Origin: an uncultured Poribacteria bacterium
GTDB taxonomy: Bacteria > Poribacteria > WGA-4E > WGA-3G
Direction of reading: 5' to 3'
DNA: 64,000 nucleotides
NCBI GenBank assembly: GCA_951813565.1
Contig: OX638351.1
Location: 992,001-1,056,000 of the forward strand
Made by a program: the position numbers. Positions 34,701 through 40,700 of the stretch are shown here, in pieces. Each line of letters starts with the position of its first letter. Positions within the stretch are counted from its first letter, which is position 1.

Positions 34701-37700
34701 GTCGCTTGTTCTATCCATTCCTGGGGTATTTCTTGGGTGTAACGATGCGGAGGTCCCGCCTCTTTGAAAATATCTATAGCGAAGATACGATAAAGCTGCG
34801 AAGAGTCTACAGGTTTCGCTTCTACGCCGTGAAAAATGCGAGCGTCAATGTAGACCATACTGCCCGGTGGCAATTCAAGCCGTTTCTCTTCCAGTTTGCG
34901 TCCAGCTTCTTCGTCGAAGTCACCTGCAAGCATCCGTTCTGGTGTTGCCTCTTGCGTCGGTGCGACCTTGTGGCTGCCGGGTATAACTTTGAGATTCCGA
35001 TCACCGCGCGTGAAACCGTTTGGATAGTACAGAATCTGGATGTAGTAATTGTCGCGTTCCGCGAGGTTGATCGGGTTCTCGTGCTTCCAATGGTGATGGT
35101 CCTGATGGAATTGAATCGGCCCGATCCCGCGGGGTGCGATGTTGAGTGCGGAGTGACAGAAGTGATACGCGTCACCGATCGTTGCGCTTATTAGTGCTGT
35201 AATAAAGGGATCGTCAATAAGTCTGTCGCTGTACTCACGCCGTTCATTCCATGGACGAATAAAATAGGCGCGTTCCTGTTTTTCACCGTTTTTCAACGTC
35301 TCAATGTACTGGCGCGTAGGTTCAAAATGCTGCGTTATCTCTTCAATCAAGCCTTCTCTTCCATCGTCAGTGAAAACATCTGGGTAAGCAATGTATCCAT
35401 CGTTATGAAATGAATTAATGTCTTCCTGCGAGGGACCTGATAAGCGAAAAAGTGAATCAAGTTTATTTTTCATAAGTTAACCTCACATTCTGCTGTGCCC
35501 TTTCTGCTTAAACCTTTCCAACAATGCCGTTAACCGTTCCACAATCTCCGGACGGCTTGACCATAGGTTATCTGTTTCATACGGGTCGTCGAAAATATGA
35601 TATAGCTGCCCTGGAGTGCCCGCCTCAGGAGCACTACCACGAGGTGGAGGCCACCCTCCTGAACCTTGTGTTTCCAGAATTAATTTCCATTCTCTGTGCC
35701 GTATAGAAAAAACACCATTACTGGAATGATGCACAATAGCCTCTCGTAGCGCTTTTTCCGTCTCTTCACCTAACAGTGCTGGTAAAATGTTACAACTATC
35801 CTGTCCAGCATCATCGGGAACATCCGTTCCAACAATTGTCGCACACGTCGCCATCAAATCAGTCAGACACACCAATTCATCGGTTGCAGTATTTGGTTCA
35901 ATGACACCGGGCCACCTTGCGATTAATGGCTCACGATGTCCGCCTTCCCAAATATGCGCCTTATAGCCGCGCCAGTCTCCGCAAGATTTGTGGTCGTAAA
36001 GATGATACGGCATTGGGCTATTATCGCCCTGAATTCGGTCGCCGGGTAATGCGCCGTTGTCGCTTGTGACGAAAATCAGTGTATCGTCTGTTTTCCCTGT
36101 TCGGTCTAAAGCCTCCATTACCTGACCTACGATCCAATCCACTAACCAGACTAAATCGCCACGAGGGCCGGCATCACTCTGTCCGCGCGCGAATTCTGGC
36201 ACGACTTCCTCAACACACGGTTCATGCGGTGCCGAGGGTGTCAAATAAAGAAAAAACGGCGCATCCGAATCGGCTTGTCCATCAATATATTCAACAGCTT
36301 TCTGCGCAATCATCGGGTCGGCATCTTTATGTTGCCAACTCGGAGCAGTCATACCCGGTCGACCTGTAAAATCTGGCACGCCACGGTATTCACTTGGAAT
36401 TTCAACAAAAGCCTCATTTTCAATAAAGCCGTAAGGAGGTTGACATGTTGGGCAACCTGCGGTCCCATAGAAATAATCAAAACCAATATCAATTGGCCCG
36501 CCTGTCAACGGCGCGCGAAAATCAATATGTTCTTCCAACTCACGTTTTGCATTACCCCATGGTAACGGAGCATCAAAATCGTGATCGTATCCTGGTTTCG
36601 TTGAAAATCCGATTCCTAAGTGCCATTTACCGACACATGCAGTATTGTAACCTACATCTTTCAGCAAGCTTGCTACTGTCAAACGTTCTGTCTCAATTAA
36701 AGGAGGTTCGTAGCCGTAAAGCACACCGCGCTTTAGGCGACTCCGCCAGCAATATCTGCCTGTTAAGACACCGTATCGGGTGGGTGTACAGACTGCAGAT
36801 GGGGAATGTGCATCGGTGAAGCGAATGCCTTCTTGCGCAAGTTGATCCATATTTGGGGTGGGAATTTTTGAATCAGGGTTGTAGCAGCCGACATCGCCGT
36901 AACCCATATCGTCTGCCATAATAAAAACGATATTTGGTAATTTTTGATTGTCCATAATACACCGATAGAGAATAGTGGTTATAAACCCTCCTATTTTAAT
37001 TTCTCCTTTAATTCCGTGAGTTCTTTGTCAATTGATTCGTCTTCCGCGTAATTCGCAAATTCACGATGCAATTTGACGTCCTTAAATTCAATATCTACTT
37101 CGGAAGCTGCTTTTGCCAAAGCTGCAGCTTCACTTACGTTTTGTCCCATCTTCTTAAGCATCTCAAAAGCTTTATTGTCTTGCAGTTCAGACAATGTTTG
37201 TTGCAGATGTTCTTGGGCATCAACATTTCTGTGTTTTGCAATTACAACTTCTCTTTCTCGCTGTGTTTGCTGTGTTTTTTGCTGGAGTGTGTCAAGAAGT
37301 GTTGTGAGGTGTTCAACTGTCTTTTTTTGTTCTTCCCACTGTTCCTTGTATCGCCTTGCGATTTGTCTATATTCATTACGTTGTGCAAGGTCTTCACGTG
37401 CTAAATCATCTCGTTCCGCCTTAAGCGCGATGATGGCACGTTCTTCACACTTTTCTGCTTGTGCAATTGCTCCGTCATGGGCATTTTGAAACTGTTTTTC
37501 TATTCCGATGGAGGCGTCAACTTTCTGCTTTGCTTCTGAAAAACGATTTGTAATTTCCAGGATCACATCCTCTAATATCTTTTCCAAATCGGTTTCTTTA
37601 TCTATTTTTTCATCTTCGGAGACAATTTCGATTTGAGGAGAGTCGAGTTTGATAACGACCGTTTTCGCAAGTTTATCACCCATTCGCTGTCTGCCTTTTC

Positions 37701-40700
37701 CTAAGGCGAATAACCAGTCAATAGGTTGAAATATGGCAGCAAAACGACGAACGAACGCATCTTTATAGTTTGCTTGTTCTCCATCCTTCAAACGGACTAT
37801 TTTAAGAGATAATAATCTCTTTCCAAATCCTCCTCCATCTTCACGTCCGTCCATAAAAAAATAACCATACATCCACAATAAAATGCTTAGGACAAAGAAG
37901 GTAGTTGTGGCGGGATCATCGCCAAACATCATATATTCGTCAAAATCAGTGAAAATTACGGATTGTAAAAGTCCTATTAGCCATAATATAATTTGGCAGA
38001 ACCCCAAGAAACCGATGTCCAGCAAAAACGCACCTAACCTTGCCCAACGAGATGCCAATTTAAACTTTTCTCCAGCGATCTTAACAATAGACATGATCCG
38101 TATTTCTCCATCTTATTAGAGTTTATCATTACCAAAGAAGGTGGTTAAATCTTGTTCTATGGTGGGTACTCCATTTAAGGAAAAATTACACTTGAGGTAG
38201 GTGACAGTTCTGTCTGATTTGAATCAAGATGAGACTTCTTAATCTGAATATTGGTAGATATTGAAATTAATTGGACACTCTACACCAGCGAGGTTTGGAC
38301 ACCTCGCCTACCGCGAAACGAAAGTTATTATTAATTTTCAGGATTGTTATGTCTATTGTAATTTCGCCTTTAATTCTGCTAAGTCGTTGTCAAGGGATGC
38401 TTCTTCAGCATAACCAGCAAATTCTTTGTTTAACTTTGTATCCCTAAGATCAATATCCACTTCGGACGCTGCCTTTGCCAATGTCGCAGCTTCACTTACA
38501 TTTTGCTCCATTTGATTGAGCATTTCAAAAGCTGCACTATCTTGAACCTCTGTCAATGTTTCTTGCAGGTGTTGGTGTGCATCAACATTTCTGTGTTGTG
38601 CGATAACAATATCCCTTTTTCTTTCTGCTTCTTCAGTCTTCTGTTGCAATGTTTCAAGGAGCGTAGTGAGTTCTGCCACGACTTGCTTCTGTTCATCCCA
38701 TTGTGCTTTATATCGGTTTGCTAGTTGGCGGTATTCGTTCCGTTGTGCGAGGTCTTCCCGTGCCAAATCTTCCCGTCCTGCCTGAATCGCTATAGTTGCG
38801 CGCTCCTCACACCGTTCCGCTTGGACAACTGCCCCTTCATAAGCGTTCTGAAACTGCTTTTCAATCCCAATAGAGGCATCAACCTTCTGTCTCGCCTCAG
38901 CCAAACGGTTTGTCATTTCAAGGATAGCATTTTCTAAAACTTTTTCGGGGTCTTTTTCAGTTTCAGTTTCGGCTTTGGCTGCGATTTCTTCAAGATAAGG
39001 CTCATATTTAACGACAACTGTTTCAGCGAACTTATCCCCCATCCGCTGCTTTTTACCACCGAGGGCAAAGAGGAGATCAAACGGCTGGAAAAAACCTGTG
39101 AACCGACGAACGAATGAATCCTTGAAGGAACACGGTTTACCATCTCTTAACCGAATAACTTGTAATGACAGTACCCTTTTGCCGAATCCTTGTCCGTTTT
39201 TGAATCCATCCATGAAAAGTAGCCCGGCACTCCATACTAAGAAATATAGCAACGGAAATAAAGGTAGCATAAAAGGACGTTGAAACATGAATAGCAATCC
39301 CAACAGGCTGACTATAATGGAAGAGCAAAAAGAGGTGGCAATTAGATCAAATAAGAGCGCGAACGTCCGAGCAGCTCGTGACGCCAATTTGAATTTTTTC
39401 CCTGCTATCTCAAGTAGTTTCATTGTGGGAAAGTTCCTTTATATTCAGAAAACCCGTTTGTTACTGAATTATGTTTGAGCAACATTTTTTCATAGAAGAC
39501 TATTTACGGGTTTTCTCCATTATCCATTTATAATAGAGTCTTACAAAGTTAAAAGGATAGCCAAATTATGCAATTACAACGTGGGAACTGTTACTGCTAC
39601 TTCGCGTCCACCTGCTTCTGAAGAATCGATGACTCCCTGAATGATAACGTTTGTGAGCAAAATCTCATAGGGATCAATAGGGGAAGGTTTACCCTCTCTG
39701 ACTGCATCAATAAATGCACTATCTTCTTCATGAAATACACTTACCGATTTAAATTCCGTGTAGGTTTCATCATGGATCTCACCATCTTTGTCGCCATAAA
39801 CACGCACACCATCTTGAGGACCACGGACTTCACCAATACCGATTCGTAATCCGGCTTTTTTGCCGAGAAAAATAGTGCCACCAAGCGAATCCATATTCAT
39901 GCACCAACATGTTTTAAACACTAAGCGTGCGCCGTTGTCAAAAACAACCCATCCTACGCCGAAATCTTCAACTTCTGTCTCTTTGAGTGCGGCATTCCAT
40001 GTATTGTGTAGGCTCAAATAATTTGAGGTAATACCAGAAACAGCAATAGGTTTGGGATGCCCCATTAGATAGAGTGCGGTATCCAATGCATAAACACCTA
40101 TGTCTGCAGATGCGCCTAAACCGGCTGTCGCTTTACGAATAAAACTGCCACCGGGATTTCCGCGCCTCCGATCTGCTACGGTTTCAGCGTAGTATATCTC
40201 ACCAAGTGTGCCAGCGTCAACAATCTCTTTTGCTTTGATGACTTGTGGGGAATAACGGAGTTTGAGTCCAATCATCAGAATTTTGTCATTTTCTACTGAG
40301 GCGCGCCACATAGCTGCTGCACCATCTAACGTAGCCTCCATCGGCTTTTCGCAGAAAACGTGTTTACCTGCGTTTAACGCTGCAACAGTCGGTGCTGCAT
40401 GTACGCCTGTAGGGGTACAAACATACACTGCTTCAATTTCGTCCATTTTGAGCATTTCGTTGTAGTCAGTAAATGTATTTTTAATTCCCCACCGTTCTTT
40501 CGCGCGTTCCAAATTTGCCGGAACCAAGTCAGATGCTGCGATAATTTCAGCACCTTTAATCTCAGCAAGCGTTCCGCAATGTGCTTGCGCAATACCACCT
40601 GCCCCAATTAAACCTAATTTGACTTTTCTCATAGTCATCTCCTCATCATAGATTTGTTCTATAGATTTTATCTTATTTTTCTGTTAGAAGTCAAGTGAAT

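What a model noticed while it worked through the whole genome (the two positions that open the first line are those of the whole stretch)
36991..39423. RDD-PspA fusion: an integral-membrane-anchored bacterial ESCRT-III protein, in tandem pairs
Two adjacent genes encode a transmembrane RDD domain fused to a PspA/Vipp1 (ESCRT-III) core. The core begins where helix 1 begins, so the amphipathic helix 0 is replaced by integral membrane helices. The fusion is typical of family WGA-3G; other Poribacteria have free PspA.
Evidence so far: Pfam RDD 14-144 + PspA_IM30 162-365; the Synechocystis Vipp1 match starts at its residue 19. Long fused ORFs, usually two or three, in 24 of 28 family relatives; other families match the PspA part and the RDD part only as separate hits. 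117 of the 120 best homologues carry both domains. Model: TM helices 16-48 and 61-80, long hairpin 166-289; hydropathy. The PSP survey PMC11237479 never mentions RDD and reports other fusions in <2% of PspA (passages, call 41); search 30 gave nothing relevant.
(Added by a program. Inside this text positions count along the whole contig: contig position 992,001 is position 1 of the stretch shown here. "Call 12" and the like, gene names such as g00115 and contig names such as C1 are that model's own, and its searches are not shown. The text may have been shortened before it was handed on; [...] marks where a part breaks off. The agent that wrote the report below was given it as the finding of a first reader that could run no searches.)

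Follow-up and report, generated by a model that had tools for sequence, protein, structure and literature searches.

The report
Membrane-integral PspA fusion in Poribacteria
Two neighbouring genes of a Poribacteria bacterium encode a membrane-repair protein of the PspA (bacterial ESCRT-III) kind that has lost its usual detachable grip on membranes and is instead built into the membrane through an RDD domain, an untested design confined to one family of these bacteria.

The parts
38353..39423 (-). RDD-PspA fusion gene, upstream copy (P0002, 356 aa)
39025..39384 (-). RDD domain of P0002 (residues 14-133), with R19, D26 and D130 signature
   Evidence: Pfam; conservation; model
39292..39363 (-). 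TM1 of P0002 (about residues 21-44)
   Evidence: hydropathy and positive-inside counts; model helix 16-46
39211..39261 (-). TM2 of P0002 (about residues 55-71)
38953..39006 (-). Acidic, variable linker (residues 140-157) in the place of helix 0
   Evidence: (pLDDT under 50 at 143-157)
38356..38952 (-). PspA/Vipp1 core, helices 1-5 (residues 158-356)
38241..38345 (.). Short intergenic repeat element with about 20 other matches in the genome; not specific to this locus
36991..38094 (-). RDD-PspA fusion gene, downstream copy (P0001, 367 aa)
37663..38055 (-). RDD domain of P0001 (residues 14-144)
37000..37611 (-). PspA_IM30 match of P0001 (residues 162-365)
39574..40638 (-). Gfo/Idh/MocA oxidoreductase: conserved upstream flank of the array slot; no functional link shown
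35483..36955 (-). Sulfatase: conserved downstream flank of the array slot; no functional link shown

Best explanation
Each gene encodes an integral inner-membrane protein. An RDD module (N-in, two transmembrane helices, a short hydrophobic helix pair, a conserved Arg/Asp cluster on the cytoplasmic side, C-in) is joined by an acidic flexible linker to a cytoplasmic PspA/ESCRT-III core. Shown by sequence: the domain order, loss of helix 0, loss of the cationic hairpin surface, and retention of the helix-5/hairpin-tip contact residues. Supported by phylogeny: it arose once, from the canonical PspA of a CesT/Tir-PspA gene pair. Inferred: the cores self-associate, alone or with paralogues, by the ESCRT-III helix-5 domain swap into a lattice that is permanently tied to the membrane. 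Tethering replaces reversible recruitment and the job is membrane stabilisation or bending under envelope stress. More speculative: the RDD pocket reads a lipid or other signal that triggers assembly, and the variable TM1-loop-TM2 part gives paralogues different specificities.
For: Topology: mean K+R is 6.0 in residues 1-20, 0.8 in the TM1-TM2 loop, 9.0 in 72-107 and 4.9 in 122-139; 98 of 116 sequences have two hydrophobic windows in RDD and 0 of 116 have one in the core. Linker net negative in 173 of 175 fusions; hydrophobic moment 0.31 against 0.69 for helix 0 of 96 free PspAs. Hairpin charge -4.7 (177 fusions) against +4.2 (83 free; 10 Poribacteria canonical); PMC12636044 (abstract) says the cationic hairpin drives IM30 membrane binding. 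Positions matching Vipp1 K74, L86, R88, L91, L193, F197, L210 and L213 are kept or conservatively changed; PMC8281802 and PMC11746142 (passages) place K74, L86, R88, L91, L193, F197 (F196 in PspA) and M212 of PspA in helix-5/hairpin contacts and show helix 5 is needed for assembly. dN/dS is 0.074 for helices 1-3, 0.089 for helices 4-5, 0.069 for RDD 64-139 and 0.44 for residues 27-63 (21 disjoint pairs). The 17 best Foldseek rows are all Vipp1/PspA, among them solved H1-5 and H1-6 rods that lack helix 0. Tree: fusion clade SH-aLRT 100, grouped with 7 same-order free PspAs at 95. CesT/Tir partner: 0 of 82 family genomes, 37 of 39 others. PMC12419801 (passage) states RDD has an intramembrane binding site facing the cytoplasm.
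Against: No experiment on any member. E179 is present in 0 of 177 fusions against 76 of 83 free; E126 in 7 of 177; R170, K174, R142 and W71 are mostly changed. These are fixed, switching or NTPase contacts of PspA rods, so canonical rod behaviour may be lost. Helix 0 also forms the inter-rung Interface 2. An invariant A-to-D change sits beside the hairpin tip (D224 in 166 of 177). Helices 4-5 are low-confidence in the model (pLDDT under 50 at 309-344; pTM 0.38). In a sponge metatranscriptome the SAG 3G copies reach only 0.05 of the housekeeping level, a tenth of a free PspA (PMC5087111 Data S1), which is low for a bulk coat. 5 of 81 family genomes lack the fusion, four with a clean empty slot. 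Sequences are related, so counts are not independent; the tree is a quick search without bootstrap.
Confidence: 0.55

Rival explanations
1. Low-copy membrane nucleator or adaptor: the tethered core seeds or recruits polymers of a free PspA encoded elsewhere, in the role that PspB/PspC, LiaI or ESCRT-II-like proteins play in other systems, and does not form a bulk lattice itself.
For: Transcript level 37-42 FPKM against 419 for the 843-nt free PspA in SAG 3G. The cationic hairpin surface and E179/E126 are lost while helix-5 contacts are kept. Free PspA-family genes are present in all 11 family genomes searched with PF04012.
Against: The family's free PspAs are very distant from the fused core: the ABC-linked clade is on a long separate branch and tblastn of the fusions finds neither in the own genome at E 0.01. 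They persist in genomes that lost the fusion. Expression was mapped from another sponge species onto the SAG and was not measured under stress.
Confidence: 0.17
2. The RDD module is the working part (lipid or ligand binding, ion transport, or a small pore), and the ESCRT-III core is co-opted as a clustering device that arrays RDD modules in the membrane.
Against: The fused RDD is a short form that lacks the long third hydrophobic segment seen in related RDD proteins. A shared fold shows no function, identity is 12% and Pfam gives no Pex match. A B. subtilis RDD protein showed no salt or pH phenotype (PMC7568657, passage).
Confidence: 0.17
3. A non-polymerising transmembrane sensor or regulator: the PspA hairpin serves only as a protein-binding coiled coil, as PspA does for PspF, and is controlled from the membrane.
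For: RDD domains occur in regulators (SppI) and in signalling fusions. The external TM-loop part diversifies between paralogues. Transcript level is low.
Against: Helices 4-5 are under strong purifying selection (dN/dS 0.089) and keep the F...L..L.K polymer motif, which a hairpin-only regulator would not need. No regulator gene is a conserved neighbour in the array loci examined.
Confidence: 0.1
4. Assembly or annotation artefact, or a neutral chance fusion.
For: A few copies are split by frameshifts or stops (G003, G025, G022) and some genomes lack the gene.
Against: 70 of 70 loci hold single-frame fusions; independent contigs agree; dN/dS is under 0.1 in both domains; transcripts were mapped in three sponge replicates.
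Confidence: 0.01

Closest known systems
PspA / Vipp1 (IM30) / LiaH, bacterial ESCRT-III superfamily (Pfam PF04012; PDB 8qhv, 7o3w, 6zvr, 7abk)
   Same: Helices 1-5 align over about 200 residues (E 5e-17 single sequence, 1e-25 profile); hairpin fold; helix-5/hairpin-tip residues kept.
   Different: No amphipathic helix 0; acidic hairpin; E179 and mostly E126 lost; integral membrane domain; far below NCBIfam equivalog cut-offs for PspA and LiaH.
CesT/Tir-PspA gene pair (YjfI-YjfJ type; PMC11237479)
   Same: The nearest free relatives of the fused core, in sister Poribacteria families, mostly sit next to a CesT_Tir_1 gene.
   Different: The fusion family has no match to that partner (0 of 82) and no unfused member of that clade in the 11 genomes searched with PF04012.
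RDD family (PF06271): H. andaensis RDD, B. subtilis SppI/YteJ, VanZ-RDD fusions
   Same: R19, D26 and D130 signature kept; membrane domain.
   Different: Short variant with two clear TM helices; fused to an ESCRT-III core; no solved relative by sequence.
Previously mentioned membrane-domain fusions: PspC+PspA in Firmicutes (PMC9239133 section 7) and Snf7-like + RND transporter in M. abscessus (PMC11237479)
   Same: An ESCRT-III-type domain on one chain with a membrane domain.
   Different: Single-sentence mentions, not characterised in what I read; different partner domains; I did not check those proteins or whether they keep helix 0.
Membrane domain of the peroxisomal Pex2/Pex10/Pex12 ligase (PDB 7t92)
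   Different: 12% identity, no RING finger, four to five TM segments in Pex against two plus a short pair here; homology and function not shown.

Membership tests
PspA/Vipp1 (ESCRT-III superfamily) | PspA_IM30 profile match over the curated cut-off | tested here: met
   79.5 and 92 bits against 33.9
PspA/Vipp1 (ESCRT-III superfamily) | Helix 1 / helix 2-3 hairpin fold | tested here: met
   model helices 159-214 and 218-295, pLDDT mostly above 80 to residue 260; 4whe rmsd 2.1 over 118 columns
PspA/Vipp1 (ESCRT-III superfamily) | Helix 5 with residues for the hairpin-tip domain swap (Interfaces 1 and 3) | tested here: met
   by sequence only: F197 position F in 174 of 177, L213 in 175, L86 in 165, R88 in 175; L200 is Y
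canonical PspA/Vipp1 | N-terminal amphipathic helix 0 | tested here: not met
   acidic linker, moment 0.31 against 0.69, net negative in 173 of 175
canonical PspA/Vipp1 | Cationic helix 1-3 hairpin for lipid binding | tested here: not met
   net charge -4.7 against +4.2
canonical PspA/Vipp1 | R44/E126/E179 NTPase-linked residues | tested here: not met
   R or K at 44 in 171 of 177; E126 in 7 of 177; E179 in 0 of 177. E126 is also variable in free PspAs (42 of 83)
canonical PspA/Vipp1 | NCBIfam equivalog cut-off (TIGR02977, NF045984) | tested here: not met
   63.5 against 243 and 55.6 against 380 bits
PspA/Vipp1 (ESCRT-III superfamily) | Forms rings, rods or spirals and remodels membranes | not testable with these tools
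   needs EM and reconstitution
RDD family | PF06271 match and conserved Arg, Asp, Asp | tested here: met
   52 and 45.9 bits against 24.1; R19 100%, D26 96%, D130 100% of aligned rows
RDD family | Three predicted TM segments (PMC5996927) | tested here: inconclusive
   two clear windows in 98 of 116; third segment is a short hydrophobic helix pair, 100-120
RDD family | Na+/H+ antiport as reported for one member | not testable with these tools
   no assay possible
Pex2/Pex10/Pex12 membrane domain | Shared fold | tested here: inconclusive
   [not shown]

The most novel reading that the evidence does not exclude
The fusion is an integral-membrane ESCRT-III machine in which the polymer arrays RDD modules that are bacterial homologues of the Pex2/10/12 membrane domain. 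Lattice assembly would cluster them into a lipid-sensing, membrane-bending or pore-forming unit, with paralogues and multi-RDD forms supplying different subunits.
Probability: 0.12. Interest if true: 0.9.

Novelty: new variant of a known kind. Interest (0 to 1): 0.66.

Why it matters
The PspA/Vipp1 papers I read describe soluble proteins that reach membranes reversibly through helix 0 and a cationic hairpin, and the share of work between those two devices is debated (PMC12636044, PMC13051332, bioRxiv 2025.06.13.659447). Here evolution removed both and hard-wired a membrane domain, while keeping the polymer contacts under strong selection. That gives a natural construct to test whether an ESCRT-III lattice can bend or seal membranes through an integral anchor, and whether E126/E179-linked nucleotide turnover is needed. 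It also gives a genetic and structural handle on the common but poorly understood RDD domain. The side match of RDD to Pex2/10/12 would, if real, point to a bacterial relative of the peroxisomal retrotranslocon membrane fold.

Tried and rejected
Complex prediction of four copies of the core: no answer, score 0.01; the tool states this is no evidence either way. RNA run search: no RNA holder listed. Sigma-70 and terminator scan: 25 weak sites against 13.4 expected, none clearly upstream of either gene; not used. Linker as a helix-0 remnant: the profile aligns it ungapped to Vipp1 residues 12-23, so the join may lie inside old helix 0, but the stretch is acidic and not amphipathic; rejected as a functional helix 0. 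Search for long PspA fusions with a sister-family free PspA: 8 hits among 4327 candidates, none with RDD; it also missed this family's own 390-410 aa forms, so it is weak. Sequence search of the RDD alignment against the PDB: nothing significant. Whole-model VIA search: dominated by generic coiled coils. RDD-domain tree: fused RDDs group at SH-aLRT 86 with long branches meeting; donor not identified. DNA search in five genomes of the order plus G068: added nothing. Kinship of the named WGA-3G genome was not given by the tool. Functional link to flanking sulfatase and oxidoreductase: rejected as unsupported, since the flanks abut without the array in four genomes and the upstream gene is transcribed 16-18 times higher. 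Literature: searches listed no paper describing RDD-PspA; searches listed none linking RDD to Pex2/10/12 (only the listed rows were seen). The OpARA data files of PMC9239133, the web app and tables of PMC11237479, bioRxiv supplements and subscription journals were not seen and may list the architecture.
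Full report
OBSERVATION. The two ORFs are real and intact: 36991-38094(-), 367 aa (P0001) and 38353-39423(-), 356 aa (P0002), 59% identical. Each has RDD then PspA_IM30 above Pfam cut-offs. The core matches solved Vipp1 and PspA from chain residue 21-22 onward. Contigs from 4 runs of 2 studies cover both genes without indels or joints (one may be the source of this DNA). 119 of the 120 best of 672 homologues carry both domains.

DISTRIBUTION. In a phylum sample of 120 genomes, 76 of 81 in the window's family (f1) have fusion-level matches (E at most 2.4e-48; one is split by a frameshift, one is fragmentary); 5 do not. 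None of the 39 genomes of seven other families scores better than 9.5e-42. In the 10 of those I inspected, PspA matches lie in frames of 107-290 aa and RDD matches lie in other genes. A profile search of 1.84 billion representatives gave 37 hits at E under 1e-30. Among the 150 listed, those spanning both domains are at the top; the six I placed in the tree fall inside the fusion clade. The library has no taxonomy and I saw only 150 of 10,796 hits. A pattern scan of GTDB contigs returned 70 loci, 67 titled Poribacteria and 3 'uncultured bacterium'; the patterns are family-specific, so this cannot find independent fusions. All 70 hold at least one fusion: 16 one, 37 two, 16 three, 1 four, as lower bounds. 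The array sits between a Gfo/Idh/MocA gene and a sulfatase. In four genomes lacking it, the two flanks abut across 62-347 bp. Variants include a four-RDD protein of 879 aa, a doubled RDD-PspA of 713 aa, and two-RDD forms.

ORIGIN. In a quick ML tree of 82 cores (no bootstrap; the careful search did not finish), the 25 fused cores form one clade (SH-aLRT 100) on a long stem (1.08) and group with 7 free PspAs of same-order families (95). Those free proteins have a normal helix 0 and are 34-44% identical to the fused core. Most sit beside a CesT_Tir_1 gene, the pairing described in PMC11237479 (passages). That partner is found in 37 of 39 non-f1 genomes and 0 of 82 f1 genomes; this is one evolutionary event, not 82. 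Family f1 still has free PspA-family genes of two distant kinds: one upstream of an ABC transporter and one of about 279 aa. RDD domains with the same N-terminal motif occur in Poribacteria alone or fused to other domains, so the parts were at hand, but the donor was not resolved.

ANATOMY. Positive-inside counts and hydropathy over 116 sequences give N-in, TM1 (about 21-44), a variable outside loop, TM2 (about 55-71), and a cytoplasmic remainder with a short hydrophobic helix pair; the core has no hydrophobic window. Related RDD proteins continue through a further TM helix into what looks like an external domain, which fits a cytoplasmic RDD C-terminus (inference). The full model has pLDDT 72.9 and pTM 0.38, with the linker and 309-344 under 50. 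The RDD-only model is good (87.9, pTM 0.75). The linker (median 17 residues, counted with the first two core residues) is net negative in 173 of 175 fusions and has moment 0.31, against 0.69 for helix 0 of 96 free PspAs (rows not deduplicated). The hairpin has net charge -4.7 in 177 fusions and +4.2 in 83 free PspAs and in the 10 canonical Poribacteria ones. So both membrane-binding devices described for IM30/PspA (PMC12636044 and bioRxiv 2025.06.13.659447, abstracts; PMC13051332, passages) are gone. Mapping Vipp1 numbering from the alignment, the helix-5/hairpin-tip positions are retained (K74 as R in 166 of 177, L86 165, R88 175, L91 as L or I 176, L193 143, F197 174, L210 168, L213 175). 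E179 is absent (0 of 177), E126 is mostly Q, and R142, R170, K174 and W71 are mostly changed. PMC8281802 and PMC11746142 (passages) assign most of the first set to polymer Interfaces 1 and 3 and the second to fixed, switching or NTPase contacts. Solved helix-0-less rods exist (9hzm, 8qhx), so losing helix 0 need not stop assembly. dN/dS over 21 disjoint pairs from 56 genes: N-terminus 0.09, residues 27-63 0.44, RDD 64-139 0.07, linker 0.26, helices 1-3 0.07, helices 4-5 0.09.

EXPRESSION. Data S1 of PMC5087111 (supplement rows) lists two genes on contig_121.122 of SAG 3G with pfam04012 + pfam06271. Their lengths (1179 and 1080 nt) equal the tandem ORFs of L184. Mean FPKM is 41.7 and 37.4 (0.05 of housekeeping), against 419 and 55 for the two free PspAs and 680 for the upstream oxidoreductase. 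Reads came from another sponge species mapped to the SAG. The main text has no occurrence of psp, IM30 or RDD. So the genes are transcribed at low level, and the domain pair has sat in automatic annotation without comment.

MECHANISM. Best reading (0.55): a permanently tethered ESCRT-III-like subunit that assembles through the helix-5 swap into a membrane-attached lattice for stabilising or bending the inner membrane. Shown: architecture, losses, retained contacts, selection. Inferred: polymerisation, stress role, any ligand control by RDD. Rivals: low-copy nucleator for free PspA (0.17); RDD as the working unit clustered by the core (0.17); non-polymerising regulator (0.10); artefact (0.01). 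Against the best reading stand the loss of E179 and neighbouring contacts, loss of Interface 2, low basal transcription, and clean loss of the array in some genomes.

COMPARISON AND NOVELTY. It is a member of the PspA/ESCRT-III superfamily by sequence and fold, but fails three features of canonical PspA/Vipp1. The two PSP surveys do not contain 'RDD' or 'Poribacteria' in main text or in the supplements held. PMC11237479 puts fusions under 2% and names NlpC/P60, PspAA, and an Snf7-like + RND transporter fusion. PMC9239133 section 7 (read whole) found little room for extra domains on PspA but mentions PspC+PspA proteins in Firmicutes. Two ESCRT reviews (PMC7619361, PMC11188069; passages) do not mention RDD. 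Searches listed nothing on the fusion. The ESM Atlas holds a 115-member cluster with both Pfams under an automatic VIPP1 name. This scan recorded the same fusion twice on other genomes; one note called it phylum-wide, which my sample contradicts. Verdict: real, new variant of a known kind, directly testable; interest 0.66.

Noticed in passing
[not shown]
   Followed up: partly
L086:10528-13167(-); L087:7073-9214(-); P0122, P0127: Multi-domain variants: four RDD copies on one PspA core (879 aa), a doubled RDD-PspA (713 aa), and two-RDD forms.
   Followed up: partly
L003:1489-2148(+) (own genome): A divergent free PspA overlaps the start of an ABC-transporter ATPase gene; the arrangement is conserved across family f1.
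   Followed up: partly
L004:1105-1941(+) (own genome): A second divergent PspA-like gene (278 aa), sometimes duplicated, usually followed by a large uncharacterised ORF. The SAG 3G gene of similar length (843 nt) is the most transcribed PspA.
   Followed up: partly
L051:2934-4457, L052:3000-4586, L053:2820-3947, L054:2875-3831, L055:2595-3686: Related RDD domains fused to a further TM helix and an unassigned C-terminal domain, two with an N-terminal Cys-pair (zinc-ribbon-like) segment.
   Followed up: no
L069:1507-3222(-), L084:43-1908(+): A related RDD domain at the C-terminus of a protein whose N-terminus looks like an ABC permease (recalled resemblance, not scanned), in family f3.
   Followed up: no
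L064, L065, L066, L079, L081: Other Poribacteria families have a second locus with free pspA next to a bifunctional-nuclease (BFN) gene and, in several, a second divergent pspA; not found as a sister of the fusion.
   Followed up: no
window 38241-38345: Short palindromic intergenic repeat with about 20 other matches in the genome.
   Followed up: partly
L126, L127, L128, L129: Clean empty sites: oxidoreductase and sulfatase abut with no fusion gene in four family genomes.
   Followed up: yes
P0250, P0258, P0168: Singleton PspA fusions in the library (TIC20-like, TerD, alpha-2-macroglobulin); may be gene-calling or assembly artefacts.
   Followed up: no
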